DNA of 64,000 bases from Felis catus (taxonomy: Eukaryota). The notes below the pieces were generated by a model. The model searched no databases and was not told where the DNA came from. It saw nothing but the letters and a program-made list of their open reading frames with translations. A program made the translations under genes and the position numbers. Positions 17,551-52,223 of this stretch are shown one piece after another (position 1 is the first letter of the stretch; each line of letters begins with the position of its first letter). Location: NCBI RefSeq assembly GCF_018350175.1, contig NC_058368.1, positions 17,238,001 through 17,302,000 on the forward strand. Reading direction: 5' to 3'.

Positions 17551-17755
17551 TTTTTTTTAAAATGTTTATTCATTTTTGAGAGACAGAGTGTGACTGGGGG
17601 AGGGGCAGAGAGAGAGGGAGACACAGAATCCGAAGCAGGCTCCAGGCTCCGAGCCGTCAGCCCAGAGCCCGACGCGGGGCTCGAACTCACGGACCGTGAG
17701 ATCGTGACCTGAGCCGAAGTCGGACGCTTAGCCAACTGAGCCACCCAGGCACCCC
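17551..17755 (-). mobile_element. SINEC_Fc-type SINE
   Basis: GAATCCGAAGCAGGCTCCAGGCTC...GCCACCCAGGCACCCC; TSD taatgat..tttttaaa. Confidence 0.95.
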
Positions 17756-18349: not shown

Positions 18350-18570
18350 AAATAAAAATCATTTATTTGTTTTTGAGAAAGAGCACGTGCATGCTGGGGA
18401 GGGGCAGACAGAGGGGGAGGGGCAGAGAGAGGGCGACGGCGAATCCCAAGCAGGTTCCGCACAGCTAGCACAGAGCCCAGTGCCGGGCCCGAACTCATGA
18501 ACTGTGAGATCGTGACCTGAGCCAAAATCAGGAGTTGGACGCTTAACTGACTGAGCCACCCACGTGCCCC
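18350..18570 (-). mobile_element. SINEC
   Basis: Antisense SINE ending GCCACCCACGTGCCCC; degenerate TSD tag(t/c)tttt(a/g)cttt. Confidence 0.92.
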
Positions 18571-20399
18571 TAGCTTTTGCTTTTTTAATATTTTGCTTTT
18601 TTCCCTCAGTTATTATAGTCTCGGTCTGATACGCCTGCTCTATTATTTGGCACATTTCTCTCCCTAGTTAATGGAATGGTAACATTTACTTTAAAATTTT
18701 GATTTGTATTTAAACTTTAGAAAACATTATGCTGTATCATATTTCAAGATAGTAAGCGAGGAATGGCTAGCTGAAGAAACTGAGTTTATTTTTGGATTTG
18801 CTGAAAATGTGGCTGTGCGTCTAAGGATTGTGTTTATGGAAATAGAAAATAAATCATTTCGGGGGCTTTTTTAGAGCCGGAGTTTCATGTGAGAGAGAAA
18901 AATTCCAGAGATATTGTTCTTGACCCTTCTTCTCACCGTTGACATGGCGTTACTTATGGGGCTTAGGCAGATTCTGGCAAACTATCTACGGAACAGAATT
19001 TATCTTAATTCACCTGATATAAGAAAACTTCCCTCTAGCAGAATAAACACAGAAAACCTCAGGATTAAAGAAAAAATAAAAATTCATATATATATTTCAA
19101 AATTATTTTAATATGATACTTATTTTTGTAGGGGTTTTGCACTGTCTTGTAAAATACTCTAATATTTGAATGAGAAGTTCAATACTGTTTAACTTAAAGA
19201 GTATCTTGAATGAAATTACTTCTCTGGGAAGTGTGAGGTATTTTGCCAAAGAGAAATAAAAAAAATATTTGCAGTATTTGTGGAAAGAGAGAAAATAAAG
19301 ATATCTCTCCTTTCTGTAAAAATAATATTAAACTAAGAATTTTGATTTTTTTGACTCAGTTACATGTAATATAACAGTATATTATACAGTATATTATATG
19401 TTATACGCTATATTATTGACTGTCTTACCAAGTTAATATCTTGGTAAGACAGTCAATAATTTTAATTAAAATATACTCCAAAAAAAATCTATGTTTATAG
19501 ACTGTAATATGAACCTTTATTTTCAAAATCTTCAAGTTTAACATATACGTTTCATGTAATACAATACATGTGTATGAAGACACATATATAATATGTTTTG
19601 ACACTTTTCAAAGATATGTATTCCTCGGGAATTATGGAAAGTACTTGAATCTTATGAACAAGCACTATTCTTGTTGTTTAGTTGGAGTGATCTGGGTCTC
19701 GGAAAAGATAGGTAACTTCTCCAAATGCATCCATCTGTCCAGGAAGTAACAGACCTCTCTCAAGAGTAACTTATTCTTCCCATCTAGGTGATGACATACG
19801 TTTTGGACTAGTGGGTTTGACTATCAACTTCAGCTGTAGTGATGTATTATCACCTCTTTTATACAACGATGGGAAGCATAACGATAAAGCTTCTCCACGA
19901 AATACACAAAATGCCTCCAGTATTTCACATCTGGGAGGCCATAAAATTAAGAAATGTCTACTCCAATTCTCTTTTCAGTCCACTAAATTCACCTCCTCCA
20001 AGTCCTCAAAGATTGCTTTTTAGGACAGTGACTAAGGAAATTACTGGAGCAAACATAGTCCTTGAATAACCAAAAAATAAATAAAATATAACTTTTGCTT
20101 TCAGGAGTCAAGAAGAGATTTAGGAAAGCAGAAAGCTAAAAGCCCTTGTTTCCGATTTAATTATATTATCATAAGACACTGACTAGCCACAGAAATCTTG
20201 TTATGATGTAAGAATGGATTAGGACCACCCATCACTAATGGGATGGTGCTTAGGACACAGTTACTAATTTTTAGTTTGGGGCTGTTACCAAATGACAGGG
20301 CTGAGAGGACTTTATTTGAAGAATAGATAATTTCAGGATTTTACCTCAGGGAGTTCTACTGCGTTTGGATTTAATAAATGAATGTTGGTTGTGCATGTA

Positions 20400-20401
<2 letters not shown>

Positions 20402-20444
<43 letters not shown>
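20402..20444. repeat. (CA)n microsatellite
   Basis: Direct reading. Confidence 0.95.
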
Positions 20445-20446
<2 letters not shown>

Positions 20447-22560
20447 TTCTTATATTTTAGGATTCTTTCAATCAGATCTTAAACCTTATATATGACTTAT
20501 TATGGTTTATGCAATTTTGTCTTCATAGCATTCCTGTCAGCTTCGTAAAAACAAACAAAAACATTACTATTCTTTTTTGGCGGATGAGGAAACTGAGTCA
20601 CAGAAATAGGCACTTTCCTCAAGTGTCATAACCAGGCAACTAGAGGCCAATTTGAATCCCAGGATCCTTTCTGCAAGCAGTAACTTCTATACTTACTCAG
20701 GATAAGTGAGGAGGGGTGTTCACTCAATGTTTTCCGGGTTTTCCTGACCAGGGTTTTAGGAATGCTTAGTAGATGAGAATGAAATCAGAGTAGGATGTGT
20801 CCACAGACAAAAAGTTTTGTCTCTTACGAAATGTGAATTTTTATTTTAGAATTCTTAATGGCTCTGTGTACTCAAACTTACAGTATTCTTTTTTGATATC
20901 ATACTGTAATTCTTTTTAAAAATACATGTAAAAATATATAGCCTTTCTAGAGTTCAAATAAGCACAAATCAAATCAACCTTACAGTTGATTTTTTACTTA
21001 TTTTATCTAATTTTACTTATTTATCTACTATTTTTTTACTTATTTTATCAATTAAATTGTGAAGAAATTTTAAAAATACCAAATATGTGAGTTATGATGA
21101 AACAGGTATATTTCTGTAATGTTTGTGAAGCTACAAAGTGAGAAAACACTTTGGAAAAACCTGTGAATATGTAGTTAGAGCCATACAGGGTGCAGCATTC
21201 CACTGAAGACACAGCTCGACCGAAGCAAAAACCTTACAGGCATACTAATGTCACCGTGTACTCAAATAGCAGAAATTATTCTCCATGACCAATAAACATA
21301 AAGAGCTTTTCAGTAATGGCAGTCCTTAAAATTTAATGCAGTCCTTAAAATTTTAAGTGATAGAGTCCATCATAGTGTAATTCTTAAAATGATCATTTAG
21401 TAATTAAATATGTTTTTTGGAATATTAGTGAAGAATATGAGAATAGTACATCAAAAGGCCATCCATCCAGGTACTCTGGGGCCAGGGATATCCTATGTAG
21501 TTGCAGATTGTCACTTACAGTTTATAAGGTCAAACTCGGAAGTTATGAAATGTGCTCTCCTTACGGGCTGCAGCTAAGGTGCCATGTAACAATCACATGT
21601 GGGTTTAGCTAACCCGTCTTTCATTCCTTTCTGCTTCATCCTCTCTGTCACCCTGAGGGGAGCTCAATACAATAATACTACAGACCTGGAAAAGACATCG
21701 TCCTTTGATAATCGCCTCTTTGAAGTCTAATTGGAGAGCTAGTGCTCCAGCATTTTAGCAGAAGACGAAAGCAAGTATTCTTTTATCTTGTTCCTACTGG
21801 AACATCTTCTTATCTGATTTCATCCCAGCCTTCAACGGTCTGCAAGTATTCTAACATGCAAATGCATCTGTCCCTTTTTAGTCTTTTCTCCAAAGAACTT
21901 TTCTAGCTCTTCGTTGTGATGCGAAAGCTGGTCTCACTTGCTCCTCCAGGCACGTCCTGCCCTCAACCCTAATGACCTTCCCACACTTCAATACCTGGCT
22001 AAGTGGCATTTCATCTCCAGAACTGCTCCCAAGGTCATGATGACTAAGTTAGCCGTGCCCTTCTTTGTGCTTCTACTGTTACCCTTAGGTACAACAACAA
22101 TGGTGTATTCTGATGATTTGCTAATGTAAAGACCTCCATTGTAGCGAAGGAACTCCTTCAGATCAAAATTAATGTCATTAATTAATGTCATTAATGTTTG
22201 TAGCACAGTGCCTCCCCAGGGTTGAAAACAAGGGTTAGTATTTAACAGATATTAAAATGAATAAATAGATAAATGGGAAAAAGAAGCTCCCTTTTTACAT
22301 AAAGATCAATTACATCATATTCTAAGAAAACTCCCTCTAAACAATTACCAGTGGCCCTTGGCATTCCTTTAGAGCATCCCCCATCCTAGCATTAACTTAA
22401 ATCCCTGTGGCACCAAGAAAGATTTTTAGTAAAGCTTTCACAGTTTTAAACACATGAAACCAACTGCTGTGAAAATTCCTTTGGAACCTTCAGTGAAATA
22501 TACTTAAGACGGAGGAGATTCCCAGATTCCCAAGGAACCACCAGATTGGAGCTCATGTTC

Positions 22561-22794
22561 TTCTTCTTCTTTTTTTTTTTTAATGTTTATTTATTTTTGA
22601 GAGAGAGAGACAGAGACAGAGTGTGAGTGGGGGATGGGCAGAGAGAGAGAGAGAGGGAGACACAGAATCCGAAGCAGGCTCCAGGCCCTGAGCTGTCAGC
22701 ACAGAGCCCGAGATGGGGCTCGAATCCACAAACCGCGAGATCATGACCTGAGCCGAAGACTGATGCTCAACCTACTGAGCCGCCCAGACACCCC
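22561..22794 (-). mobile_element. SINEC_Fc-type SINE
   Basis: Full antisense SINE; TSD tggagctcat. Confidence 0.95.
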
Positions 22795-24624
22795 TGGAGC
22801 TCATTGCTATTCTTAAAGAATTCTTTTCAGAAAAAAAAAAGTTGCCAGTATATTATATAAACTATGGAATGCCTTTAAAATTTAAAGGGCAGTAGACATT
22901 TTCTATAAATCAGTATAATTTTAAAGTCAGCACCACTTAACTCAGGTATTTTTAGTTACCTCAATTTTTTGCCTCATGTGATAGACATTAGGCCAGGCAG
23001 AGAAGTAGAAAGCTCTAAGAGCATAAAGTATCCTCATTCCTCACTGAAATGTCATTACATAACTTTTTATTAGTTTCTTGTTTATATGTTTGTTTTAAGT
23101 CTCAAGCCCGCCGCAGCAGATCCAAGACGTTTCTCGATGGGCATAAGAAAGCAGTGGGATATGTGATCATCTGTCTGGCTTGACATACCCCGTAGGAGGA
23201 GCCCTAGTTTTTTCTCCATTGTGAAAATTGGTTTGCTGCTTCCTCACTTGAACTCGCATGTGACTTGGGAGCACAGTCTGAGAGAGTTCCGTCTCCTGGT
23301 TTGGCAGTAAAACTGGGGCGTCGGATATGATACCCGTGTTGGCCGTTGTAACGTATCTGGTCCAGAGCCAGACATTTGTTGCCTCCGTCTTTGAGTATGT
23401 CTTTTGGTGCCCGATTTTTCGTTCGCCAAGGTCTTTAATTCATACGCTATTGAAAGACATAAATAGCATCTTGACATAATAGAGCTGCAAAGTCATTTCT
23501 TTATATGAAGTGTCAGTTAAGGACACGGCTTTCAGATTTTTATTCCATATTTGATGACTGAAAACTCAGACACAAGGAGACTGGAGCTCGTCATTCTAGT
23601 TACAAGGACCACACGTTTTTGCTTGAAAGTGACCAGTAACTCAGGGTGTGAGGCAAAGTCATTACGGACACGTAGCTGGAATTTAAAGCAAAGGCTGGAA
23701 GAATACAACTAAGTGCAGTAAGTCGGAAAAGGAGGTTTGAGTACAAGCATTAAAAGATTATACAGACACATTCAGCTTAGAGAGAAAAGCAAGCATTCTT
23801 TGGCAATAAAATTAATCGCTAGTGACGTGAGAACCAGAGGAAAGACACTGGTGCCTTAGGGAGTTATAATAAGAAGATGAAGTAACGTCAGGCACCGAGA
23901 CAAATATTTCTAATCTGCGAGAGGGCATAAGATCTACTAGGATACAGGGCCTGGCAAGGGCTGTTGGCTACTATGACTCAAAGTTTGGAAGCCTTTCTCT
24001 TTTCGACGAGCAGTTTAGAATTGTTCAGATCATCAAGGTCTTTCTATACCAGAGGCCTGCCTTTAGAAGCATGGCTGTTAGGTACCTGTACTGTGTCCAT
24101 GAAAGAAGTCATACCTTTTCGATAGAAAAATATAAACTAAATGTTATCAGTTACTATTGGTTACGTTCATTTCAAAATTATACATCATGTGGGTATGCTG
24201 TTTTACTGGCTTTAATTTAAGGGCAACTTTTCTTAAATTGTTCAATCTTTTGGTGAATATGAATCCTTATTAGTCACGTTTCTAGAGGCTTAGCGTGATT
24301 CTGTATTTACTCTCAAAAGCGATGATAGTCACCTTTTAAAACTAAGAAAATCTTTCACAGGTTATTAAAAGGTCATAATCTCACATCAAATATTTATTTG
24401 TGGTATATATTACAGAGCTCAACTCTATCTTATTCTTTCTCTTTAAGTTTGCTCTGGGTGGCTGGGAAAAATAGAAGGTAGTATTCAATGGTGTAGTACA
24501 TCGTTGTCATTGGTATGGTCCTATATTCACTTGAGCCTACGACAATACAAAGAGAATCACAATGCAGTGTAAAAAAAAGGGTCAGAGCTTCTGTGGCAAA
24601 ACCTACTTGCGAAAAAGAGGTCCC

Positions 24625-25545
24625 CTGTTCATTTATTTATTGAATTAGGCAACAAGCATTTTTGGAGCACCCATGTTTCAGACGTCTGTGGGATCCAGGG
24701 AAAACAGGGATGAGCATCACTGTCGTGATCTTTGACCGAGGTTCCAATAGGCTCAGATGATAAAATAATAGACCAATAAAACTTTATACAGTGTTTACCA
24801 CATTAAGGAGGTTATCATTTAATCCAAGGTAGAGATGCAGCTGTCAGGAATGGCTTTTGAGAGGTGATATTTAGGCTTACATTTAGGATGGAATGAAGCT
24901 GCCACTGGAAAAAGGGAGGAAGAAATGTTCCAAGCATGGGGGGGGGGGGGGGGACGGAGCATGTGCGAAGGCACTGAGCTCTCTGTGCTCAAGTGACCGG
25001 AAGAATATCAACCTGCCTGGAGCTTAGCTAACAAACAGAGTGTCACGCAAGACGATGCTGGAGAGCTAGATTGGAGCCTGATGGTGCAGAGCCTTATAAC
25101 CCAGGACAGTGATTTAGATTTTGTTCTAAGGCCAAGGGAATCCCTACTGCCCCATCGTTTTAAAGCAAGGGAGTAACTTGTTGCAATTTACGTTTTGAGA
25201 AGATGACGCTTGCAGCCCTGGAGGATCCAGAGGAAACAGCAAGGGGACAACAGGGAGACCAATATGAGGCTGATGCAGTAAGACAGATGTGAGACAGAAA
25301 AAAGAGGACGGGCTTGATATAATTGTGGATCTCAGTCTATAGGACTTGTTGACAGATTGGATTATGGGAGAAAAGGGAGAACTTAAGCACAATTCTGGGC
25401 TTCTCTGCCAGAGGACAGCAGTGGCACTACTCGTTGAGATGGAAAAGACAAGGGGGCATAGAACAGATTTCAGGGAGGAAATTAGGAGGTCATTTTGGAC
25501 ATCATAATTATGAGATGCCTTACTTTGAAATGTGCATACAGGAAG
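24625..25545 (-). mobile_element. Old L2 LINE fragment
   Basis: ttcatttatttattgaa...caagcatttttggagcacc end motif plus purine-rich L2-like segments (gaggtgatatttagg, gattttgttctaagg, ttttaaagcaagggagtaac, ttttggacat). Heavily diverged; carries a G16 run at 24938-24953. Confidence 0.6.
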
Positions 25546-25589
25546 GCAAGCCTATTGACCCTGCTTATCTTCCCTTCCATCGCAGTTAG

Positions 25590-25815
25590 GAGCTGAGCCT
25601 CCGGAGTTAGAACTGGAACAAATACTGGTTCTGCCCTTTGCAGTAACTGGTGATGTGACCCCCCGAGCCAAGTAACTGAATCTTTTGTGGCCTCGGTTTC
25701 AGTTGTAACGTGGAACAATAGCAGTAGCTGGCTAATAAGGTTCTTTTGAAGATTAAGTAAGATAATTCATGGAAATAGGACCATTCATGCGGCACACTTC
25801 CCGTTGCATAGTAAT
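25590..25815 (+). mobile_element. MIR SINE relic
   Basis: ctggttctgcc...gtgacc...caagtaactgaatc...gcctcggtttc...gaagattaagtaagataat matches the MIR core pattern. Confidence 0.65.
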
Positions 25816-26087
25816 GACCGTGCAGGTAGCCAGTGAGGCTTTTGAGGTTACATCTCTGACGGATTCCAGTGTTTTTCTTCCGATTCTTCTTTCTTTCCTT
25901 TTCTTTTATCTCTTGCTTCTTTCCTCTATTTCTTCTCCTTCTTTCCTTTTCTTTCTTTCCTCTTCCTCTCTGTTTAACATAAGACTTACTTTTTACAAAG
26001 GATGTCAGTATTGGTACTAAGAAATTAGAAGAAAAGGATGAATAGAAAATCATTATATAGCTATGTTTGGTCTTCAATTTAGAAGAC

Positions 26088-26300
26088 TTTTTTTTTTAAC
26101 ATTTATTTATGTTTGAGAGACAGAGAGAGACAGAGCACGAGCAGGGGAGGGTCAGAGACAGGGAGACACAGAATCCAAAGCAGGCTCCAGGCTCCGAGCT
26201 GTCAGCACAGAGCCCAATGCCGGGCTCGAACTCACGGACTGTGAGATCATGACCTGAGCCGAAGTCAGACGTTTGACCGATGGAGCCACCCAGACGCGCC
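26088..26300 (-). mobile_element. SINEC_Fc-type SINE inserted in a locally duplicated segment
   Basis: Full antisense SINE; TSD aatttagaa(g/c)actttt. Confidence 0.95.
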
Positions 26301-28296
26301 AATTTAGAACACTTTTTATATTCTTCATGTTAATTTTGAACTAAGCTTGAAATTTGCACCTTCGGTAGTATCTTTTGTTTTTCTCATAGCAGCTGTTTGT
26401 AAAGTTTGACTATTTGTTTTGGGTGGAGAGACGAGATAATACAGGGATGCAAGTGGAAAAGTGGTGAACACCTCCATACTGCTGAGGTTAAAGGCTAAGA
26501 AGTCTTCCAAGGTTATTTCGTTGTTAGTAAATGGTGAAACAAAAGTTTTTGTTAAACTAGTAATACAAAGTGTTCCCTATGGTGAAACAATGGAAATACA
26601 AAATACCATGTCCCTTCAGCTCAGTTTACATGTCTTTTTCCTTTTAATAACTGGAAGCTTAATTTTTATAGACTTGAAGGTTAAATATAGTAACTCGAAA
26701 AAATAGCACTCGAAAGCATCTGGATTTAGCAAATATGAGGCTTAAGTGATAGTTCTGACTGCAAGTCTAACCAGCTGATGACAGTGATAAAATAAGTATT
26801 AAAGCCATGTGTCTTTCTGTAATAATCCAGTGAGGCCAAAGGGACAAATGTGATACCTAATCCTGATTGCAAATAAGGAAAAATAAAATTTAGTGAGGCC
26901 TGGTGAAAAAGGGTGAGTGAGCCACACACACATAAAAACAGGTATCTTTTTTCTTGCTTCACAAATGTAGACTGATATAATGATGTACATTTCCTAAGAG
27001 CAAAAATGTTTGTGTAAATGAAAATAAATACTTTTCTTTAGTATTATTCTGTTTTAGGACAGTTCGCTTAAACTTACTGAAGTCACTGATTTACTAATCT
27101 GGTTCTGCCCCTAAGAATCAAAAAGTCAATGCCTAGTAGCTGTATATAAGTAATTTCTTACTGAAGGAATAAGTACCTTAAAGAAACAAGGTACCTTTGG
27201 ATGTTTACATTTAGAATTCTTACAGAGCTGTTATGGTAGAAATTCCCCAAATGAATTATTCAGTTATGGCTAGCCACTATTTAACAATAAGACTTACTTT
27301 TTGCAAAAGATGTCAGTATTATTGGTATAAGAAATTAGAAGAAAACGATGAAAGGAAAATAATTATATAAGCTATATGTGTTTTTCAATTTAAAACACTT
27401 TTTATATTCTTTATGTTAATTTTGAACTAAGCTTGAAAACAGCACCCTCGGTAGTATCTTTTGGTGAAGGAAGCCAGGACACGATTCTCTTCCTTTTTGT
27501 TTCAAGAAAGCTCTGACTACATTCTTCCAGGCGGAGACAGCAGAGTACATGCTCTCCATTTTTTTGGCTGGCTAACTCGGTGCAGAAAGGTTTAATTAGT
27601 TCATCTTGGTAAAGCCCCCACCTGCTACCTTTAACTCCACTTATATAACTGTTAGAGGCCTGAGTTGAGAACACAGAAAACAGTGTTCTCAAGCTTAGCT
27701 CAAGAGAGCCACTTCAGAAATTGAAAATAAAGTGGTCAAACTGGTCAGTAGACCTCAGAAATCCAGGAGACAGAAAAGAACCATTCTGTGTTCCCATAAT
27801 TCTTCTCTTACTTTATTGTGTGTAGAAATAGCCCAAAATTAAGTGCACTGCATCATGGCTATAAAATTAAGAAAGGGGTACATGTAACCATTTCAGAAAT
27901 TGTTATTAACCGCTAAGAAAAAAATGACCCTCGCTACCTAAAGCTCAAGAGTCATGTTGTTTCACCATGCGTGTCCATCAGGTTACTAAATCCAGTTAAT
28001 TTTACCTGCTTTCCGAATTTCTGTTGAAACAGATTCCTGCATTAACTCCATTCCCGGTGATCCCATTAGAATCATGTTGAGGTTTATCTTCAATGACTTA
28101 ATAGATGTAAACTGCTTAAAATACTGACTGGCACAGAGAAGTGCCATGTAAATGTTAGCCACTCCCCCACTAGCATAGAATCGGATATCTGTGAGAGCCA
28201 AGATTCCTAGTGTTGCTTTTCACTGACGCATCCTCATTGCTGGCACATGTAGATGTTCAATAACTGCTTAATGAGTGAATGAATACATTTTTCTAA

Positions 28297-28517
28297 ATTT
28301 TTAAAATTTTTTTTAACGTTTATTTATTTTTGAGACAGAGAGAGACAGAGCATGAACAGGGGAGGGTCAGAGAGAGAGGGAGACACAGAATCCGAAGCAG
28401 GCTCCAGGCTCTGAGCTGTCAGCACAGAGCCCGACGCGGGGCTCAAACCCATGAACCGTGAGATCATGACCTGAGCTGAAGGTGGCCGCTTAATGGTCTG
28501 AGCCACCCAGGCGCCCC
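28297..28517 (-). mobile_element. SINEC_Fc-type SINE (inserted in the tail of its neighbour)
   Basis: Full antisense SINE ending CCAGGCGCCCC, followed directly by a second SINE tail. Confidence 0.95.
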
Positions 28518-28718
28518 TAAATGTTTATTTATTTTTGAAAGAAAGAGACAGCGTGAGTGGGGGAGGGGCAGAGACAGAGGGAGACACAGAATCCGAAGCA
28601 GGCTCCAGGCTCTGAGCTGTCGGAACAGAGCCCAACGCAGGGCTAGAATTCATGAACCACAAGATCATGATCTGAGCCGAAGTTGGACGCTCAACTGACT
28701 GAGCCACCCAGGCGCTGC
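28518..28718 (-). mobile_element. SINEC_Fc-type SINE
   Basis: Second member of the tandem pair; outer TSD atgaatacatt..ttctaa brackets both elements. Confidence 0.93.
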
Positions 28719-29119
28719 ATGAATACATTCTTTCTAATGTGATTTTCCTAATGGATTTCTTTGTCTCTTGCAGCTTTCCCCTCTGATCCAGATATACCAT
28801 TTCCATAGTTACCTAAAATTACAAATGTGATTTTTGAATTGTCTTTAAAAAAATAAAAACAAAAACACACACAAAAAACTTGTCTTCCCCTCTGCTGTCA
28901 CGGCTGATTTTCTGACATGCGAATCTGATGTCATCTTTATTTTCCAGCTGTCACATGGTGTCTTGTTAAACACAGGACAAAATTCAGACCCTTTGTGATG
29001 TCCGTACTGACCAAGTGTGATCTGTCCAGCCACCCAGCCTACTCAGGAGTCCCACACATGCCATGCTACGTCCTGTGCTCTGCCTTTTCTTTCGCTTTCT
29101 TCCTGAATATCCTTCCTCC

Positions 29120-29600
29120 TGCCTCTTCAAGAGACTCAGGCCAGATATTTCTCCCTGACTTCTTCTACCCTTGTGCTTAGGGTCAGACATCACCACCTCT
29201 GTGTTTCCATAACTACTCATATTTGTATTCAGGGATGATATGATATATAATGATATATATATATCATATTATATCATATATATCATATATATATGATATT
29301 ATATGATATATAATATGATATAATATGATATGATATGATATATAATGATACATTATGTATAATGTACATATACATATACACACTCACATGTAATATATAT
29401 GTGTATTTTATATATAGCAATTGGTATGATTTAAATTATTTTATATATCAATATATGGATCTATAAATAAACACTTTGCATATCATCCCTGAATACAAAT
29501 ATGAGTAGTTATGGAAACACAGAGGTGGTGATGTCTGACCCTAAGCACAAGGGTAGAAGAAGTCAGGGAGAAATATCTGGCCTGAGTCTCTTGAAGAGGC

Positions 29601-29601
<1 letters not shown>
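29120..29601. repeat. Perfect 123-bp inverted repeat (29120-29242 / 29479-29601) with a 236-bp TA-rich spacer
   Basis: Base-by-base reverse-complement comparison shows no mismatch over 123 bp. Confidence 0.97.
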
Positions 29602-29632
<31 letters not shown>

Positions 29633-29975
29633 TATATATAAGTGATATATATATATATATATATCACTTACCAAGCGAAAGATGTGGCAGCAGAAATAAT
29701 ATATAGTATAATGTATAAGGTTGTTAATATACTATGCAATGTAAAATATTAAAGGTTCTCACAAGTGTATTGGTATAGTACCAATTACTCATCAACTCAC
29801 TAATAATTTAAATATCTTTTGTTTTTACCCCATCTTTTATTTAAAGCAGCTTTCATAAGCTAAAAGACACCCTTCCTGGGCCATGAGTTGGCATAGGATC
29901 AAACTTTTCCAATGATTTAGCCCTTAAACTGGTTGTTACCAAGTGACTTGTAGCTCCAGTTGGTAGTAACTTCTC

Positions 29976-30012
29976 TTTTTATAAAAAGTTTATTTATTTA
30001 TTTTGAGAGACA

Positions 30013-30060
<48 letters not shown>

Positions 30061-30168
30061 ACGAACTGTGCAGAGCCTGACGTGGGGATCCAACTCACTG
30101 AGAGCATGACCTGAGTCGAGATCAAGAGTCAGATGCTTACTTAACCAACTGAGCCACCTGGGTGCTCC
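29976..30168 (-). mobile_element. SINEC with expanded (GA)n and internal deletion
   Basis: T tail, long (GA)n, ATGACCTGAG...CTGAGCCACCTGGGTGCTCC. Confidence 0.88.
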
Positions 30169-31740
30169 TAGAAAATTGCTCTTAACATCAATGATATTGT
30201 CCATAGTATTAAATCTACTCTGAGATTTTCTTAAACTAATCAATGACACCCAAATTATTTCTAAGACTTACAAATTATATGAGACTCTAATATATTCAAT
30301 ATCTCCATTTATAGACAAAGTTACCAAAAAATCACTCGCCAGAAAGCAAGGTTTAATTAGGTAGAACTTAATACCTTAGGACTCGTGAGAGGCAGTGTAA
30401 TACCTTGGTGAACCATATGAGTTCTTCGAAGCATTTTGGGCTTGAATCTTGATTCTGCAAAGTTTTAAATGATCTTTCTGTCTATCTATTAATCAGCACG
30501 GAAGGCATTCTCCACCTCAGCTATCAGTATACCCACTCAGAACAGGCCACTCTGCACTGCAGTCTTTTATATATTTTTGTGTTGATAAAGCTTCTCCACT
30601 GCAGGAGCTGCTTCGTTTATATCCATGTCTCCTTGTCCAGTGCTTAGTTTCTACATGGCACTTAGTAGGAGTCCAGTAAATATTTGTAGAGTGAAGCCAT
30701 GAATAAACACTGAACATAAATAACTGATTACCACTTTCTCTTAAAGCTGTGGGTGGAGTCATTTCAGAAGTAAAGAGAGGGATCCAAAGGAATATAGAAC
30801 AGTCTTGCCAGTTTAAAAAATGCAAAATAAGTGGATGCTTGTGTTTGCTTTTAAATATCTTTCAAGCACACATAAGTGTATAGAAACATATACATTTCCA
30901 AGATTCTTTGCATAGACTTTTATGGTGACATCAGACTCTGTCTTGCTTATTATAAAATGGAGTTTCTCTTCCTATGCGTATGGATATGTTTCTACTTTAC
31001 AGATCTAGCCTTTAGACATTTCAGCTGAAGTTTCTTTAGCTTACTTACTATAATAAGCATGCTGAATCTGATTGATTTATGTTAAGACACCATCGAGAAT
31101 GGAATGAGTTTCTACCCTTATCTTAATAGACTCACTTCATTCCCCTTTTGCTACATGACTTTGACAGGAACAGAGACAACCAGTGAGCCCTTCCCCCCAC
31201 CACCCCTCCCCATGTCCACCTCAAGTGTGTATGTAGTAAAAGGCAACATTCATAAAAAAAGCACCAAGTCAATTAAATGTCAATTTCACTTAATTTGGGA
31301 GAAAAGTAACACTGTAAGAGATAAAATGGATTATCAAAGTACTTTATATTGGCGATTTTTCTAGATAAACGATGTTGCTAAATGGCGTGACAAAGTCGAA
31401 ATACTGGAAATGAGTCCCTTTTTCAAGATGTCCATCTTTGAGTCTCTATTTTCACCTGCTTGATTAAATATTCACTGTGCAAATATACGTAATGAATGTG
31501 AAGACCGTCTGTTATAGAGTCTTCAGAATGATAGACATTTGATTTTGAGAGTTCAGAGAAAGGATTGTCTTTCAAGTAGAATATTCCCAAAGTTTTCAGT
31601 GTGTTGATCCAATCACCAGTCTATTTTATTCATGTGCAGGTAGTTTAAAAAAACAGGTTGTTTTTAATTTTTGAATTTTTAATAGTTTTTTAAAATACTT
31701 TTTAAAAATTAAAAATCATCCTAGAGTTTTTTTAAAAAAA

Positions 31741-31981
31741 TTTTTTGAATGTTTATTTCAATAAACATTTTTTGAATGTTTATTTTTGAGAGAGAGAGAG
31801 AGATACACAGCATGAGTGACAGAGGCAGAGAGAAAAGAGGGAGGCGGCACAGAATCCGAAGCAGGCGCCAGGTTCTGAGCTAGCAACACAGAGCCTGACA
31901 CAGGTCTCAAACCCACGAACTGTGAGATCATGACCTGAGCTGAAGTCAGATGCTTAACCAACTGAGCCACCCAGGTGCCCC
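31741..31981 (-). mobile_element. SINEC_Fc-type SINE
   Basis: Full antisense SINE; TSD tcatc(c/t)tagagttttt. Confidence 0.93.
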
Positions 31982-32571
31982 TCATCTTAGAGTTTTTAAA
32001 GTGGTTTTTTTTTATATGAAAAAAAGAGAAGTGAATTGAATCCATGTAATTACAAAACATGAAGTAGAAAGAGCATTTGACCCTTTATTATTACTATTCA
32101 CAAATACTGACAGTAACCACAAACAGTTTTAAATACAGCAGCTACCTTGTGAATTTCTGAAACTGAATGAAAGAATTAGAAGCAGCAGGGAACACAGGGA
32201 GCATACGGTATATACATTGGCTGTGGTTAAGGGCTCTTCTGTGTTGTTCTAGAAAAACATGATTATGACTTGTTTGGTAGTTGCTTAATCCACGGTGATT
32301 GTGTTACTTGGCCCAAGTTTTTTTTTTTTTAATTTGTTTGTTTGTTTTGTTTTGTTTTTAAGTAATAGATACAACTGACTTCATGATTAAGACTTCTTTG
32401 AATCTACAAGGTAGTATAATACAGGATCTGCCATATTCTTATTTCTTCCCCAAGGATAATGTATCCATATAGACCCCCTTTTAGTATTTTAATGGTCTTT
32501 ATTTGTTAGAATTCAGAAAGCATTTTGTATACATTTCTATTTTTATCCCATCAGTTACTTAAGGCAGACAG

Positions 32572-32609
<38 letters not shown>

Positions 32610-32796
32610 ATCCACATCTTGCTTGAGTAGGATCCTAGTATATTCCTATTTGGGACCAGTTTTATACCTTAATTAGTTAGTAACATTTTCCTGTGACTAG
32701 CTCCAAAATTGGCCTCTTAAGCAATAATATAAAAAAGGCTGGAAATATTTTCTTATATTCTGAATTACCCTTAGACGGTAATTAATCGGGCATTTA

Positions 32797-33034
32797 TTTT
32801 TTGTTTTTTGTTTTTTTTTTATTTTTTTGACGTTTTTATTTATTTATTGAGACAGAGAGAGACAGCGCATGAATGGGGGAGGGGCAGAGAGAGAGGGAGA
32901 CACAGAATCGGAAACAGGCTCCAGGCTCTGAGCCATCAGCCCAGAGCCTGACGCGGGGCTCAAACTCACGGACTGCGAGATCGTGACCTGAGCTGAAGTC
33001 GGACGCTCAACTGACTGAGCCGCCCAGGCGCCCC
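32797..33034 (-). mobile_element. Young SINEC_Fc
   Basis: Near-consensus, CpG-rich body (GAATCGGAAACAGGCTCC...GAGCCATCAGCCCAG); perfect 14-bp TSD taatcgggcattta. Confidence 0.96.
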
Positions 33035-33928
33035 TAATCGGGCATTTAATTCTGACTGTAGTTATAAGGTGCTTTATCTGATGCTGCTCTTGTGTCATTC
33101 CCAATTTTTTTTCATGGTATGTCTGTCCTTGGAATCATCTAAACATCTTTTAACTTTCCTCCCCCATCCTCTAGCTAACCAGTCCCTACAACCTGCTACT
33201 TTCCTTTTGCACACTTTCACTGGATCCCTTCCATGCCTTCAGTGAAAGTCACCCGAGTACCTGGAGTTGCTGAACTATTCTAGTAGTTTCTAATCTGTCT
33301 CTCCTCTCCAGTCTCCCCAACTTCAAGTTCCTCCTGAATAAAATACTTCACAGAGGAAGCTAGGCACTTGTGATTCAATGGGGTTTGGGGTTCACCCTGG
33401 ATTTGGACTCAGAAAACTTAGGCCCAGCTCTCCCCTTTGCCACCTATTAATGGAATGAATGACAGCAGGAAAGTCCATCAACCTGTGTTACGCTTCAAGT
33501 CCCTTACGCTTCTGTTTTCCCGTCTATAAAAATGGGAACATAATTTTGATGTAGCAGTCTCTCAGCGAGATTACAAAGACTACCTGACACAAGGAAAGCA
33601 AATATATAATGGAATGAGCCTGTGATGTGTACTATTATTACTAACGTATCTTTCCTTGTTATAATACTTTTGTCACTCACGTGCTCAAAACCTTCAATTT
33701 TTTTCCTTTATCTACCGACTAGACCATGCTATAGGTTATGCAATTACAGTCTGTCACTCTGGGACCCCAACCGATGCTCGCTATTTTATTTCCCCCGGTC
33801 TACTTATATTCTCCCTCAAATGGATTTCTCACCATTACACCTACTTGTAATTTCACCAATCAACACATTTATTCCTGCCTTCCCTTTTTTAAAGTATGAT
33901 TTCATGTTTCTCTGCTTATCATGGGAAT

Positions 33929-34095
33929 AAAAAGCACAGCAGAGGGAATGCAGTCAATGGTATTGTAATCATGTTGTGTGGTGACAGACGGTAGCTACAC
34001 TTGGGGTGAGCATAGCTTGACATATAGACTTACCGAATCACTATGTTGTATACCTGAAACTAACGTAACATTGCGTGTCAACCATACTCATATTT
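33929..34095 (+). mobile_element. L1 LINE 3'-end fragment
   Basis: cagcagagggaatgcagtcaatggtattgtaat...gaatcactatgttgtatacctgaaactaacgtaacattgcgtgtcaaccatac is a typical L1 3' terminus. Confidence 0.8.
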
Positions 34096-35858
34096 TTTTA
34101 ATTACTTAGAAATAGATATACATAAGCAAAATTCTTATCAGCTTGTACCCAGCTATTCCCATACCCCCAAACCATTAGGAAACACCTTTGGGGTTCCCTA
34201 ACATCAACATAGCATATTTTCATATAGGCCTTCTTTTCTATCTTCCTTCTTTCCTTCCCCTTTCCTCACACCTATTCCCACGTCCTTGGCTCAGGAATCA
34301 TATCTGCTCTTTCTTGTTCTCCCAACACACACATTCATGCACGCGCACGTACACACACACACACACACACACAAGTTTTAACGAGATTCTCTTTATATTT
34401 GTTCCCAATGGTGTGCATCCAAGTAAAGAGAGCTTTGGTTATAAATGACTTTAAGTACCTTAAGTTTGGAACCACAGCCAAATTTTGGAAGTAGGAGAAA
34501 GATATGATTTGACTGGTGGTGATGTGCAGTCTGCAATTGAAGTGAGCTGTCATGTCATGATATCTTTCTGTCACTACAAGTATTCAAGTTGACTGGCCGT
34601 TGTCAAGAGTTAAAACTGATTATTAGATAGGGTGAGACTCGATTAGATATTGATTCTAAATTTCTGGGGTTCAAGCTTCACTTGAGGAAATGATCTTTTA
34701 AAGATGGCTAAATCTGTATCTTGATAAAAATATAGAAAATTAAGAGCTTTTTCTTACAGACATTTCCATTTTACAACCTGAAAGACTCTTATAGTGAGTT
34801 TTCATCAATAGCATGTACTTAAGGTTTTACACAAGTATACATATTCATGATAGGAGAATTCATGAATGTAGAACTAAAAATAACATGAGTCATAATCTCA
34901 CTCACCAGAGAAAATCACGATTAGCATTAGCTGTGTCTCTTTCCATATCACATGTTTTACCAAAAAAAAAAAAAAAAAAAAAAGAAGGCATCATTCCGTG
35001 TACACCAGTCTGAATCCTGGCTTCCAAATTCAGAGCATGTTTTGCACATCTTTCTAGAACAATAAATATAGATCTACAATGGTTTTTAATGATGGCTTTA
35101 TATACCACTGTATAATTATATTCTATCATTTATCTAAATACTTGCAGACATTTTTTAAAGTCCGTATTTTTAGGAGATGAGTTGTTAAATGACTTTAATG
35201 CAATTAACATGACTAATTATGGCACCCCCCCCCCTCCAGGGTGAAAAGATATTTTTGGGTCCATCTACATTTTCACTTCCACTGCTAACAGGTGGAATCA
35301 AGCTGCATTCTTGTTTCTTCGAAGAGCTGATGACACCAATACCCCCTTTAGCATTCCTTTTCCCTCTTAGTGTTAATGGAAAGAAAGTATGGTTTGTAAT
35401 GATCTTTTGAACTCTGAATTCCTGGCGTGCTTATTCAGAGCATCTACTAGCTCAGAAGTCATTTTACATCCTCCAATGATAAGCTGTGCATAAACAGAGC
35501 TTCCTAGTATTTGCTAATGGCTCTTGTAATACCAGTTTCTCTCCCTTTCCTTCAGTATAAAAAATTACACTAATACATTTAAGAGATTATTTTATAAAAC
35601 CTGTTAGACAATTATCTGTTAATTACATGCCCTCAGTATAGCGATCATTGCAAGATTTATGGTGGCAGTTCAGTCAGTCGTGGGCTAGCAGATAGAAGAG
35701 GTAAGGAACAGTATGTATTGAATGCTTTCTATGTGACAAGAAATTTCCCAAGTCAACTCACTGAGTTACTATAAAAGCAATCAGTGATTTCTATTATCCC
35801 CATTGTACTTCGGAAGAAAGTGAAACTCAAAGAATTGAAAGAAATTTCTCAAAGTTAC

Positions 35859-36362
35859 TGTATTAATATTTTATCTGTGCTATAACAAATGGCCACCAAC
35901 TTAGTGACTTAAAACAACACAAATTTATTGTCTTATACTTTGGAAGTCAGAATTGTAAAATGGACCTGATTGGGCAGAAACGAAAGCACGGGCAAGGTTG
36001 TGTTCCTCTGGAAGGTCTAGAGAAGAATCTGTTTTCTTGCCATTTCCAGTTGTTAGAGGCTACCTGCATTCCTTGGCCCATGGTCTGTCCTTTCTTCCGT
36101 CTGCAAAGCTAGAAGTGTAGCATCTTCAAAAATCTCTCTAATGCTGACCTTCTGCTCACTCTTCCACTTCAAAGGATCTTTGCGGTGATGTTGGACTCAT
36201 CCAGATATTCCAGGACAATCTCCCCATTTCACAGTTGGCTCATTAGCACCCTTAACTTAATTTGCAGTCATAATTTCCCTTAGCCACATACACTAACATA
36301 TTTACAGGTCCCAGGAATTAGGTTGTGGAATTCTTTGGAGAGCCATTATTTTGCCTGCCAAA
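35859..36362 (-). mobile_element. ERVL-MaLR solo LTR (MLT1-like)
   Basis: tgtattaat...gctataacaaat..ccaccaacttagtgacttaaaacaacacaaatttattgtctta...gagccattattttgcctgcca is the antisense MLT1 pattern. Confidence 0.8.
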
Positions 36363-38591
36363 GCCATCCTATTTGTAGGAAATAAGAGAAGTGATGAGTC
36401 AAGTACAACTTTGTCTATATGTTGGTGGAATCCAAGGGGCATAAGATAGGTCCTCTTGTGCAAAAATATCTAACCCACTGCCTTCCCTAATACTTGAATT
36501 TCTATCATTAGAATTAGTGTCTTTGAGGTTCATATGCAAAAGTCATCAAGGATTTCTAGGAGGTCCTCAAAAAAAGATTTATCAGCAGCTTGCTGAGTAC
36601 ACAGAGAACATTTTAGGGGCAGGAAGTAAGGGAAAGGGATAATAAAAAAGGTCATTAAAAGGGGAAGTGTAATGATGCTAATTTTCTTTCTAGCCTATTA
36701 CATCATTTGGCCCAGAGCTAGTTTTAGTGGTAGGATTTCCCCGTTACTTAGGGATAGGAGACATGCACAAACAGCATTGTAACTTTTCTTTGATGTATTT
36801 TCTCCATTATTAACCTTTATTTACTACTATCTTGTTGATACTTGACAGTTTAACTGTAAAGAAAATCAACTGGCCCACTATCAACCAGAATTGAGATGGA
36901 AGTTTGTCTACAGACATTGACACTAAATGCAGCCAATTCAATTGGACGATTTTTTTTTCAATTATTTGCATGTGCAAGACAGATTGCTTACAGTTATAGG
37001 GCTTACACATGCTTCAACAGATTCTACTTGTATCTAATTTGGGGTCAATATTGACATATAAAAGCTTAGGTTTAAAAATTCAGACCAGAGTGATCTGTAC
37101 AAATTAAAGAAAAAAGTTGCCTGAGTCATACCCCTGTAAAATTAGGTATCTACCCCCAGGAAGGATCTCTGATCCTGAGCTAGAATAGGGTAAGGGTAGT
37201 GTTCCAGCCCAGAGCCTACAGGGTAGAAAGCTAAAATCCCCAGTTGAACTGAATTGCCAATTGAAGATGCTGAAAAGTGTTTTGCAAATGCTTTATGAAC
37301 CAAAACGAAATATCCCGAAGGAACAAGGACAGAGAAACCATTCAAAAGGGAGGGAGAAAGGCTGAATCTGGACAACATGGGGTCTCTTGACCTCCCTGGG
37401 GAGAGGAGGGAAATGTTAGGGTACCCAGGGGTTCGGGGTCCCAAAGAAGGAGTCCTGTTTCTAAGATGCATTATTCCTCTCCTCAATATGGATCCTGTAT
37501 CATTCAGGGTATCCTTAAAAATGGAAGTAGATGGAGATATTTCTGATCACAACTTGCGATGAATACACGTGCTGTGACTAGTAAAGTAATCGTGTGTTTG
37601 GTAGGTCCAGAAGAAAAAACAATCTTGCTGGCTGACAGTATATTGAAATCAAATCCAGATGTCCCCAGACCTTGAGGAAAGTAAAATAAACTGGCAAGAC
37701 GTCAGAAGAAAGTCACAGAGAGCACAGGCAGGGGACAGAAAGGGTGAGAGAGAGCAACCCCACAAAGTCCCAGCCTTGGGTGAAGACAGCGCACTAGAAG
37801 GAGAGCAGGGATGGCCTCGGGTAGCCACCCGGGGTAGAGAGAAACGACACCAGCCAAATAGCTTCCTGGCAGGTGCTTTGCTGTGGGACAATGGCAAGCT
37901 GGTCCTTACCGCAGAACAGACCCATAACCTGTACCAAGCCAAATGAGTATATCAAAGATGACCTCTGCTGAGACTCATCCAAAAGGCAGTTTAATAACAT
38001 ATTTTATGAAAAAGAGTGGTTGGCCAGGCTCTGCATATTCAGGCATAAATTATCCACAAATTGTGAACCTGCAGGGGGAAAAATATCAACTGTTTCATTG
38101 TCTTATTTCTGAGGCAAGCCTAGCTCTTTATAATCTTTAGCGCTGATGAATCCAGTCATTCTGATGAAATTTGCCAAATCTTATTCTAAGGAATGTAAAT
38201 TAAGTAATATTTACACTTGTGTTGTAGTGGAATGAATACAGGTTCATTATCTCCTTGTGATACCAAAAGCTACCAGTGCCAGAAAGTTAAATCCTGAAAA
38301 TACAGTTTGAAGATGATGATAGTTTCCATCCTTCCTGTATATTACCTATGGCTTAGAGAGAATAAATTACCAAGTCTAGTCAGATATCACAATGGCCTGG
38401 AGAGATTTAAAAAATCCAGTCCCAGGAATCTGAATCCCTGGAGCTGGGACACAAGCATTGATGTGTCCCTCCAGCAGCCAAGATTGCAAACCACTGATTT
38501 AGAAAAAGTAGGTTTACAATCCTGCCTGAAATTGTGACTTCTTTTTTTTAATGCCTATTTAACCGACTAGGCTGAGTCTGTATTGCTTGAG

Positions 38592-38752
38592 CCATGCTTC
38601 TCACATCGTATCATGCATCAAAATAGCCTGGAGAGTTTGTTAAAAAGCAGACGAATGGACCCAACCCCCAGAGCATACGATTCAGCAGGTCTAGTGCGGG
38701 GCTCAGGCAGGTATCAATGATACTGACATTGGAAGCACATTTTGAGAAACTC
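38592..38752. mobile_element. hAT-Charlie MITE relic (MER5A-like)
   Basis: catgcttctca...catcaaaatagcctggagagtttgttaaaaagcaga...cccagag...gattcagcaggtct...ttttgagaaac. Confidence 0.6.
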
Positions 38753-39574
38753 TTTTTTTTTAAAACGATGATGTAAAGATAATTAAGCCAAGTTTATAAC
38801 TGGTAATACGTTTTCCATTCTACTGCCTGTTCAAATGACCTCAGGGATTCAATCTATGATCCAGAGTTAACATCAAACACGAGATTTCAAGTGCTTTATA
38901 TTCGTCATTTCTGACAATCTGTTGAAGAGGTTTGCAAAATTTTTAGCTGAATGTTGAAAATTTGCGCTTTGAAGTATTTCAAACCTAGCTGGAGATACCT
39001 GGGGAGGCGTGCCACAGTCAACTTGTTTATTCATCTTAAATGAATTATTATCTGTGCCTGGCACACAGTAAGCACTCTGTAGAGCTTGCTAACACAGGCA
39101 TACCTTTTTTATTTTGTCAAATATTAGAAGAAGAAATATTTGGAAATACTGAATTAAATTAGGACTGTTTGAAATCCTTCCCCTGCTCCTACTTACATAA
39201 AGAAAATGTCCATTGCTAGCTTCTGGTGAATTGGGATAAGGAATGGGGAGGAAAAACTTTTGGTTAAGAAATGTGTGGAAGGAATTTTTAGGATCCTTGC
39301 CGGGTGTGAGTTGTGATGTAATTGTACCTTCGCTATCTCCTAAATAAAATTTCAGTAATGACCACCATTTATTGGGCTCTTTCTATATCCGTCCCTTCTC
39401 ACCTGGGGTTCCAGGAAAGGATTAATCCCTAATGCCTGAAAGTATCCATTGTATGAAGTGAATTGACTTTGTTAGCAAGCATCTACAATGGTACTAGCTA
39501 TGTGCCACTCTGGGAGAATTGAGAAACGTAATCATTCACATCATTTCCTGTAGAGCTGGAATCCAGACATCGCT

Positions 39575-39770
39575 CCAAGCACTTTGTAGTTAATAGCTTA
39601 CTTAATTTTCACAACCATCCTAAGAGTAGAGTCTGCTATTTATCCCCATTTTTTACAGGTGAGGAGACTAAGGTACAACCAAGTGACTTGCCCAAGGTCA
39701 AGAGTAAGTAATAGAGGCTGTATGCACAATAAGAACGGTGGAATCCGTGTTTTTATTTGCTCTGCTAACA
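39575..39770 (-). mobile_element. MIR SINE relic
   Basis: ttaattttcacaaccatcctaagag...tatccccattttttacaggtgaggagactaagg...aagtgacttgcccaaggtca. Confidence 0.8.
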
Positions 39771-40072
39771 CTGTGTTTATTATAGTGCTGATGTTTCTGG
39801 AGTTAGGCTTGTGTTTCTTTTATATTTACTTACTTGCTGAGTCAGATGACCCAGCGCATCCAGGCTGAAAGATTGTGCCTTAGATTGTTATTTCTTATGT
39901 CCTGTGTGTTACATAGTATCGACAACTAGTTGGGGATGGTAGTGGGAGGTACAGTAAGAAGGAATGGCCATCAGATGGAAAGTCAGCCCTGCTTACAAGA
40001 AGGAACCAAACTTGGCTTAATGTTTGCTCTACGCCTTATGCATTATCTCATTTCATTTTCGTTAGGACATTC

Positions 40073-40287
40073 TTTTTGTTTTGTTTTTTTTTTTCAATGG
40101 TTGGTTATTTTTGAGAGACAGAGACAGAGCATGTGTTGGTCAGGGGCAGACAGAGAGGGAGACACAGAATCCAAAGCAGGCTCCAGGCTCTGAGCTGTCA
40201 GCACAGAGCCGGATGTGGGGCTCAAACTCACAAACCTTGAGATCATGACCTGAGCTGAAATCAGACGTTTAACCACCCAGGCACCTC
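40073..40287 (-). mobile_element. SINEC_Fc-type SINE
   Basis: Antisense SINE with a small 5' deletion; TSD ttag(g/a)acattct. Confidence 0.92.
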
Positions 40288-40511
40288 TCATTAGAACATT
40301 CTAAGATAAAATATTTTACAGTTTAAAGACACAGAGATTCAGAAAGATAAAGTAATTTAACCAAGACCCCACAGCCAGCATGTGACAGAATTCACACTAG
40401 TACTGGAATTCAGAGCCCAACTTTAGGGATGTTTATTACTATCATTTGTGAGATTAAGCAACCAATGCCAAAAAGCAATTTAGTTTAGTTTTTTCTAGTT
40501 AATTAATTTCT

Positions 40512-40698
40512 GTAATGTTTTATTTATTTTTGAGAGAGAGAGCATGAGTGGGAGTGGGGGAGGGACAGAGAGAGAAGGGAACAGAAGATCCAAAGCAGGC
40601 TCTGCACTGAAAGCAGTGAGCCTGACGCGGGGCTCGAACTCACGAACCATGATATCACGACCTGGGCTGAAGTTGGACACTCAACCGACTGAGGCACA
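40512..40698 (-). mobile_element. SINEC, head truncated
   Basis: Antisense SINE body ending ACTGAGGCAC, joined directly to an LTR fragment. Confidence 0.88.

Positions 40699-52222: not shown

Positions 52223-52223
<1 letters not shown>

What the first reader, a model, noticed from the sequence alone, without database searches (positions are those of the whole stretch)
29120..29670. Perfect 123-bp inverted duplication around a TA-rich spacer in FREM2 intron 2
Seen: 29120-29242 is the exact reverse complement of 29479-29601 (0 mismatches in 123 bp of complex, non-SINEC sequence). The 236-bp spacer is (TGATA)n/(TA)n-rich. A perfect 32-bp palindrome (TAAGTGA(TA)nTCACTTA, 29639-29670) lies just past the right arm. 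Inference: perfect identity implies a very recent fold-back or template-switch event seeded at the TA array, or ongoing arm homogenisation. In pre-mRNA it would fold into a 123-bp perfect duplex, the longest I found in the window and a plausible ADAR or Dicer substrate. In DNA it is a candidate cruciform or fragile site. An assembly artefact at a TA repeat is a real alternative.
Basis: partly seen in the sequence, partly recalled or inferred. Interest (0 to 1): 0.72.

Follow-up and report, generated by a model that had tools for sequence, protein, structure and literature searches.

The report
Replication-copying scar in FREM2 intron
A perfect 123-base inverted copy in a carnivore's FREM2 intron is really in the sequence and is most likely a harmless scar left when DNA copying briefly jumped to the opposite strand at an AT-rich repeat, a known kind of mutation seen here at unusual length.

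Summary
The arms (0 mismatches in 123), the 236-nt spacer and the 32-nt palindrome are exactly as described, far beyond chance, in FREM2 intron 2 of a carnivoran. Junction anatomy points to a chained template switch of the 'inverted repeat plus inverted spacer' type: the left arm is in place, the spacer is flipped, and the right arm is the copy. The left-arm/spacer junction has an 8-nt priming match and an 87-nt filler fully built from neighbouring sequence (0 of 300 shuffles as good). The other two candidate junctions are blunt. The direction is inferred: no ortholog or read could be obtained, so an assembly artefact stays open. Perfect identity bounds the age only at about 5.5-12 My, not 'very recent'. 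The long spacer argues against a cruciform. As dsRNA it is unusually perfect but no more stable than nearby inverted SINE-like pairs. A second perfect hairpin beside a TA-rich tract lies at 19412-19460. The scan earlier noted loosely similar inverted repeats on other DNA (unchecked notes). New, long member of a known class.

The parts
29120..29242 (+). Left arm, inferred to be in its ancestral place
   Evidence: Exact match to the reverse complement of the right arm. Its upstream junction has 0 microhomology and no filler, and composition runs on from upstream DNA (GC 0.48 vs 0.44; pyrimidine 0.63 vs 0.61).
29235..29255 (+). Inferred first switch: last 8 nt of the left arm (priming match) plus 13 nt copied; exact 21-nt direct repeat of 29330-29350
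   Evidence: The 8-mer occurs 5 times in the 64-kb window on either strand, 4 of them at this locus.
29243..29329 (.). Filler F1: TA/TGATA mosaic of exact direct and inverted copies of neighbouring sequence, with 18- and 20-nt palindromes. Its right part (from about 29300) may be the old array itself
   Evidence: 8 templated segments, 0 untemplated bases; 0 of 300 shuffles as good under a flank rule applied to 7 tracts; 3 of 300 with hand-picked donors; palindromes.
29330..29478 (-). Old sequence (array end plus AT-rich unique DNA), inferred to be inverted relative to the parent allele
   Evidence: 29380-29478 is not templated from its flanks (257 of 300 shuffles as good). Its junction with the right arm has 0 microhomology and no filler. 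Orientation is inferred, not shown.
29479..29601 (-). Right arm, inferred to be the new inverted copy
   Evidence: followed by TA-rich filler.
29602..29655 (.). Filler F2: 12-nt tandem copy, 15-nt inverted copy of 29358-29372, then an inverted copy of the start of the downstream flank
   Evidence: Exact matches. The whole-filler parse is not better than shuffles (59 of 300; 90 of 300).
29639..29670 (.). Perfect 32-nt palindrome (7-nt unique arms around a TA run); inferred last fold-back before return to the downstream flank
   Evidence: DNA hairpin -9.1 kcal/mol.
16620..64000 (+). Host: FREM2 intron 2 (continues past the window end)
   Evidence: tblastn of bear, otter and dog FREM2 finds exon 1 and exon 2 only; splice sites read.

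Best explanation
[quoted passage not shown] Inferred parent allele: upstream DNA, left arm, reverse complement of 29300/29330-29478, a short TA tract, downstream DNA from about 29656. Inferred steps: (1) synthesis stalls or breaks at the end of the left arm near the TA-rich array; (2) the 3' end primes by an 8-nt match on the opposite strand in the array and copies 13 nt; (3) several slips and a fold-back build the filler; (4) one run of about 270-300 nt is copied backwards through the spacer and the arm; (5) a few more short switches in the TA tract, the last making the 32-nt palindrome, return synthesis to the forward template. Shown: the matches, the microhomology, the templated filler F1. 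Inferred: order, direction and enzyme. A stalled-fork switch or MMBIR fits the long run, and Pol-theta-like synthesis fits the fillers. The RNA duplex is a by-product.
For: Exact arms with abrupt ends. 8-nt microhomology plus 13-nt copy at the left-arm/spacer junction, against 0 nt at the spacer/right-arm and upstream/left-arm junctions. F1 fully templated: 0 of 300 shuffles as good, the only one of 7 AT-rich tracts to beat its shuffles. Filler sits at exactly the two junctions this model calls new. No target-site duplication of 2-12 nt and no third copy in the window. The type is described as 23% of 794 human-chimp events (PMC5453318, passages). Events reach 318 bp and can be chained (10.1101/2021.11.26.470150, part 1 of 7 and passages). 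From memory, untested: upstream DNA, left arm and the reversed spacer end read like one continuous old L2 3' fragment, which would fit this direction.
Against: No ortholog, second allele or read was seen, so neither the parent allele nor the reality of the junctions is shown. F2 does not parse better than its shuffles (59 of 300; 90 of 300). The 8-nt match is also expected if the array simply grew out of the arm's end (rival 1). Filler boundaries were drawn after looking at the sequence. A 270-300-nt run is near the top of reported template-switch lengths and far above Pol-theta templates (typically under 10 bp, mostly within 20 bp of the break; PMC11541566, passages). No related copy in the window aligns across the junctions.
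Confidence: 0.62

Rival explanations
1. Simple inserted inverted copy: the parent read left arm, spacer (present orientation), downstream DNA, and only the 123-nt right arm was added by one switch and return, starting 8 nt inside a pre-existing TGATA array.
For: Fewer steps. The array starts inside the arm end (29235). This is the other common template-switch type (31% of events, PMC5453318 passages).
Against: It needs a switch with 0 microhomology and no filler at 29478/29479, and it leaves the fully templated F1 unexplained.
Confidence: 0.15
2. Assembly, polishing or amplification artefact: a fold-back chimera or mis-join at TA repeats, or a real but imperfect repeat made identical by polishing.
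For: Both arms end in low-complexity TA sequence, and perfect identity is what an artefact would give. No read evidence was obtained.
Against: The window has no N. The junction fillers are multi-segment mosaics templated from both strands, which fits in-cell or polymerase synthesis better than a graph mis-join (inference; it does not exclude an in-vitro polymerase chimera).
Confidence: 0.13
3. An older inverted repeat kept identical by recurrent arm-to-arm conversion or spacer flipping.
For: Template switching is reported to homogenise arms and invert spacers (PMC8604942, search listing only).
Against: Identity ends abruptly with no decayed extension of the arms (the 143-nt, 94% extension runs only into AT-rich spacer). 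No homogenisation is needed if the age is under 5.5-12 My.
Confidence: 0.06
4. A selected, functional dsRNA element (editing substrate, small-RNA source, or modulator of FREM2 intron processing).
For: Transcribed intron and a 123-bp perfect duplex, against at most 38 perfect bp in the 16 closest other inverted pairs. Template-switch hairpins have produced new miRNA genes (10.1101/2023.04.19.537475, part 1 of 4).
Against: None of 9 Rfam matches in 27000-32000 reaches its gathering score; 8 are TA-rich miRNA models at 22-29 bits against thresholds of 76-100. The shape is unlike the 35-bp stem with a short loop described for pri-miRNA. Many SINE-like pairs give equal or more stable duplexes. No conservation evidence. 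Incidental editing is likely but is not function.
Confidence: 0.03
5. A miniature inverted-repeat transposon with 123-bp terminal repeats.
For: Long perfect terminal inverted repeats around an AT-rich core.
Against: No target-site duplication of 2-12 nt at the arm ends; no other copy in the window; composition continues from upstream DNA into the left arm. That carnivore DNA transposons are long extinct is recalled, not tested.
Confidence: 0.01

Closest known systems
Short-range template-switch mutation, four-point model type 3-1-2-4 / 1-3-4-2 (Loytynoja and Goldman; PMC5453318, passages; 10.1101/2021.11.26.470150, part 1 and passages)
   Same: Perfect inverted repeat with an inferred inverted spacer, local templates, return to the forward strand; chained events and low-complexity context are reported.
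   Different: The copied run (about 270-300 nt) is near the reported maximum (318 bp; mean 11.56 bp and maxima 97-180 bp in unmasked human loci). About 140 nt of multi-switch filler and a net gain of roughly 225-275 bp are inferred. The parent allele was not observed.
Pol-theta-mediated / synthesis-dependent MMEJ templated insertions, and MMEJ at TA-repeat breaks (PMC9303309, PMC11541566, PMC13645644; passages)
   Same: Short direct and snap-back copies from near the junction, TA repeats as break site and primer, iterative copying.
   Different: Those templates are typically under 10 bp and within about 20-50 bp of the break; the long run here exceeds that. Those data come from cell lines, cancers and fly embryos, not germline alleles.
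MMBIR-type microinversions flanked by inverted repeats (PMC8755829, part 1 of 5)
   Same: Precise inversion primed at short inverted repeats.
   Different: Those are 17-33 nt, mostly pure inversions; this one is about ten times longer and duplicates an arm.
Palindromic AT-rich repeats and fragile Alu quasi-palindromes (PMC8053094, passages)
   Same: Perfect arms and AT-rich, hairpin-forming sequence.
   Different: A 236-nt spacer rather than under about 9-12 nt; the arms are 44% GC.
Inverted SINE pairs as intronic dsRNA (10.1101/2020.10.27.358119, passages)
   Same: Long intramolecular duplex in pre-mRNA; close, near-identical inverted pairs are depleted in dog.
   Different: The arms are not SINE-like and are 100% identical. 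The 236-nt gap lies beyond the roughly 100-bp range of the SINE depletion but within the roughly 500-bp range reported for LINE pairs.

Membership tests
Template-switch mutation, inverted repeat plus inverted spacer | Perfect reverse-complement copy of nearby sequence with sharp ends | tested here: met
   0 mismatches in 123; abrupt ends.
Template-switch mutation, inverted repeat plus inverted spacer | Short priming match at the first switch | tested here: met
   8 nt at 29235-29242 vs 29330-29337, then 13 nt copied. This feature is my inference from the mechanism, not a formal criterion of the papers.
Template-switch mutation, inverted repeat plus inverted spacer | Derived allele explained from an observed parent allele, with the spacer inverted | tested here: inconclusive
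   No parent allele obtained: no genome held, no run listed, 11 of 11 metagenome hits were chance matches.
Pol-theta templated insertion (TMEJ / SD-MMEJ) | Junction filler copied from within about 50 bp of the break | tested here: inconclusive
   F1 fully templated, 0 of 300 shuffles; F2 not significant, 90 of 300.
Pol-theta templated insertion (TMEJ / SD-MMEJ) | Short copied tracts (typically under 10 bp) | tested here: not met
   Main inferred run is 270-300 nt against PMC11541566 passages.
Pol-theta templated insertion (TMEJ / SD-MMEJ) | Dependence on POLQ | not testable with these tools
   Needs genetics.
MITE / DNA transposon | Target-site duplication | tested here: not met
   None of 2-12 nt at the arm ends.
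MITE / DNA transposon | Dispersed copies | tested here: inconclusive
   None in the 64-kb window; genome not held.
PATRR / cruciform-forming fragile palindrome | Arms with little or no spacer | tested here: not met
   Spacer 236 nt; only the 32-nt TA palindrome qualifies.
miRNA or other known structured RNA | Match to a curated family | tested here: not met
   0 of 9 Rfam matches reach the gathering score.
ADAR-edited or Dicer-processed dsRNA | A-to-G clusters or phased small RNAs on the arms | not tested
   No RNA reads were examined.

The most novel reading that the evidence does not exclude
The TA-rich tract is largely the product, not just the seed: one germline repair event of about a dozen chained switches wrote some 140 nt of new TA-rich DNA and a perfect duplex of over 100 bp at once. 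This may recur (a second perfect hairpin beside a TA-rich tract lies 10 kb upstream) and be a general birth route for TA-rich low-complexity tracts and for perfect intronic dsRNA. At this locus the allele would segregate and give edited or small RNA, or alter FREM2 processing.
Probability: 0.08. Interest if true: 0.6.

Novelty: new member of a known kind. Interest (0 to 1): 0.22.

Why it matters
If real, it is an unusually long and legible germline template-switch scar whose steps can be read from the sequence, with an exact prediction for the parent allele. Such events are near homoplasy-free phylogenetic markers and raw material for new hairpin RNAs. As a single intronic case without ortholog, read or expression support, it does not change what is known.

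Tried and rejected
No whole genome is held for this window. The one sequencing-run search (28740-29985, DNA, library word PACBIO) listed no run; that is no evidence either way, and it left no run on which to lay reads. An 18-mer from the arm scanned against metagenome contigs gave 11 loci; 11 of 11 match the locus only over the 18-22-nt seed, so they are chance. Searches for related old repeats in the window that could span the junctions found nothing significant. Rfam gave only sub-threshold TA-rich matches. Cluster look-up of 3 FREM2 representatives listed no felid among the 43 rows shown. The per-segment microhomology values, other than the first, were discarded: segment ends were set maximal and one value is circular. 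The inverted-pair list does not contain the focal repeat itself (probably dropped by my filter as one self-palindromic hit), so its duplex energy comes. A sense-strand AATAAA at 29466 was set aside: 62 occur in 47,381 nt of this intron. Paper searches for assembly-artefact precedents (2 papers) and for germline AT-rich inverted duplications (1 paper) returned nothing that I read. No search used felid or FREM2 terms, so I make no claim that this locus is unpublished. MITE and PATRR readings were rejected (see membership).

Full report
OBSERVATION. The finding is exact. 29120-29242 and 29479-29601 are reverse complements with 0 mismatches in 123, identity stops sharply at both ends, the spacer is 236 nt, and 29639-29670 is a perfect 32-nt palindrome. 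A survey of perfect inverted repeats (arm 12 or more, spacer up to 600) found 39 in the window, 8 after removing low-complexity arms. The longest arms were 123, 21 and 15 nt, while 20 shuffled windows reached at most 15. The arms are outside the 22 SINE-like intervals and have no further copy in the window.

CONTEXT. The long frame at 6077-11371 carries Frem_N and 12 cadherin-like repeats. Its best full-length mammalian relatives are FREM2 of bear, otter and dog (94-96% over the searched region). These proteins map exon 1 (to 11267) and a 90-nt exon 2 (16530-16619) and no further exon, so the repeat lies about 12.5 kb into intron 2 on the sense strand. The animal is a carnivoran. 'Felid' rests on my recall of the SINE type and was not tested.

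ANATOMY. The repeat has four junctions, and each origin model calls two of them new. I wrote the prediction down before seeking orthologs. Upstream/left arm (29119/29120): 0 microhomology, no filler, and similar composition on both sides. Spacer/right arm (29478/29479): 0 microhomology and no filler. Left arm/spacer (29242/29243): the last 8 nt of the arm and the next 13 nt are an exact repeat of 29330-29350. That 8-mer occurs 5 times in the window, 4 of them here. The following 87 nt parse into 8 exact copies of flanking or just-made sequence with no untemplated base. With the same flank rule for 7 AT-rich tracts, this was the only one to beat its shuffles (0 of 300; the other six 56 to 257 of 300). 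Right arm/downstream (29601/29602): a 12-nt tandem copy, a 15-nt inverted copy of 29358-29372, and an inverted copy of the downstream flank start that makes the 32-nt palindrome. As a whole this filler is not better than its shuffles (59 of 300; 90 of 300). Filler limits were drawn by eye.

MECHANISM. Filler and priming match sit at the two junctions that are new if the left arm is in place and the spacer plus right arm are one backward copy. [quoted passage not shown] Inferred order: stall or break at the arm end; priming by 8 nt in the array on the opposite strand; slips and a fold-back; a 270-300-nt backward run; short switches in the TA tract; return. The parent allele should be about 225-275 bp shorter (from the lengths). 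In humans such events average 11.56 bp, reach 318 bp, often touch low-complexity DNA and can be chained (10.1101/2021.11.26.470150, part 1 of 7 and passages; that study used 150 bp of context). The fillers resemble snap-back and loop-out synthesis by Pol theta (PMC9303309, passages), and TA repeats are break sites repaired by MMEJ (PMC13645644, passages). Pol-theta templates, though, are typically under 10 bp (PMC11541566, passages), so the long run fits a fork-level switch or MMBIR better (PMC8755829, part 1 of 5). The enzyme is not identified. From memory only, upstream DNA, left arm and reversed spacer end look like one old L2 3' fragment; in-window searches could not test this.

WHAT IS NOT SHOWN. 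No genome is held, the run search listed none, and all 11 metagenome hits were chance. The parent allele, polymorphism and read support are therefore unknown. I put the simple inserted copy at 0.15 and an artefact at 0.13.

AGE. With 0.86e-8 per generation at 3.8 years for cat (10.1101/2021.04.06.438608, search listing), about 2.2e-9 per year, zero differences give a 95% upper age of 5.5 My. Assumed rates of 1.5e-9 and 1e-9 give 8.1 and 12.2 My. Homogenisation is not required, and 'very recent' is not shown.

FUNCTION. The arms would pair in pre-mRNA (arm duplex -246 kcal/mol). After exon 1 the window holds 58 other inverted pairs of 80 nt or more, 3 of them within 3 kb. The 16 closest are 74-84% identical, with duplexes of -131 to -332 kcal/mol (13 of 16 more stable than the arms) and perfect runs of at most 38 bp. 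The repeat is thus special in perfection, not stability. Some editing is plausible when FREM2 is transcribed (inference); function is unsupported. None of 9 Rfam matches reaches its threshold, and the shape is unlike a pri-miRNA, although template-switch hairpins have given rise to miRNAs (10.1101/2023.04.19.537475, part 1 of 4). For DNA, breaks at yeast Alu repeats fell 80% at a 9-bp spacer, but rose regardless of spacer length (tested to 12 bp) when RPA was depleted (PMC8053094, passages). A 236-nt spacer therefore makes a cruciform unlikely, while a hairpin in single-stranded DNA remains possible. Close, near-identical inverted SINE pairs are depleted in dog within about 100 bp, and LINE pairs within about 500 bp (10.1101/2020.10.27.358119, passages), so slow loss is the likely fate.

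SECOND CASE. 19412-19460 is a perfect 21-bp hairpin with a 7-nt loop next to a TA-rich tract. Both loci with arms above shuffle range touch tracts with 13 or more TA per 40 nt, which happens for 1.7% of 49-nt and 5.4% of 482-nt placements. This is post hoc with n = 2, and the tract beside the second hairpin is not significantly templated (56 of 300).

VERDICT. A real sequence feature; most likely an unusually long, chained template-switch scar with no function; new member of a known kind. No supplementary files were read. The event tables and length distributions in the supplements of the template-switch papers could bear on how unusual the length is. Two earlier scan notes describe loosely similar repeats in other genomes and were not checked.

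Noticed in passing
window 19412-19460: Second perfect inverted repeat: 21-bp arms, 7-nt loop, DNA hairpin -20.7 kcal/mol, directly after a TA-rich tract with an exact 12-nt tandem (19374-19398). Likely another template-switch scar in the same intron.
   Followed up: partly
window 28318-28715: Two SINE-like copies head to tail (period 201, 84% match), ending about 400 nt upstream of the left arm.
   Followed up: no
window 57593-57884 and 61187-61487: Two old, 65% identical copies of an unidentified repeat in inverted orientation; the longest non-SINE self-match in the masked window.
   Followed up: partly
window 32875-32948 and 44737-44810: Two SINE-like copies share a 74-nt exact match, the longest exact direct repeat in the window, suggesting young insertions.
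   Followed up: no
window 29466-29471: A sense-strand AATAAA just before the right arm; if the spacer is inverted, the event created it. Unremarkable against 62 in this part of the intron.
   Followed up: partly
window 44016-44104, 47535-47645, 59520-59615: Other TA-rich tracts; none parses as templated from its flanks better than shuffles, unlike filler F1.
   Followed up: yes
window 25996-26042 and 27304-27352: A short direct repeat (50 columns, 88% identical) outside the SINE-like intervals, 1.3 kb apart.
   Followed up: no
window 5001-9000: GC-rich region (0.57-0.69) over the FREM2 start and early exon 1.
   Followed up: no
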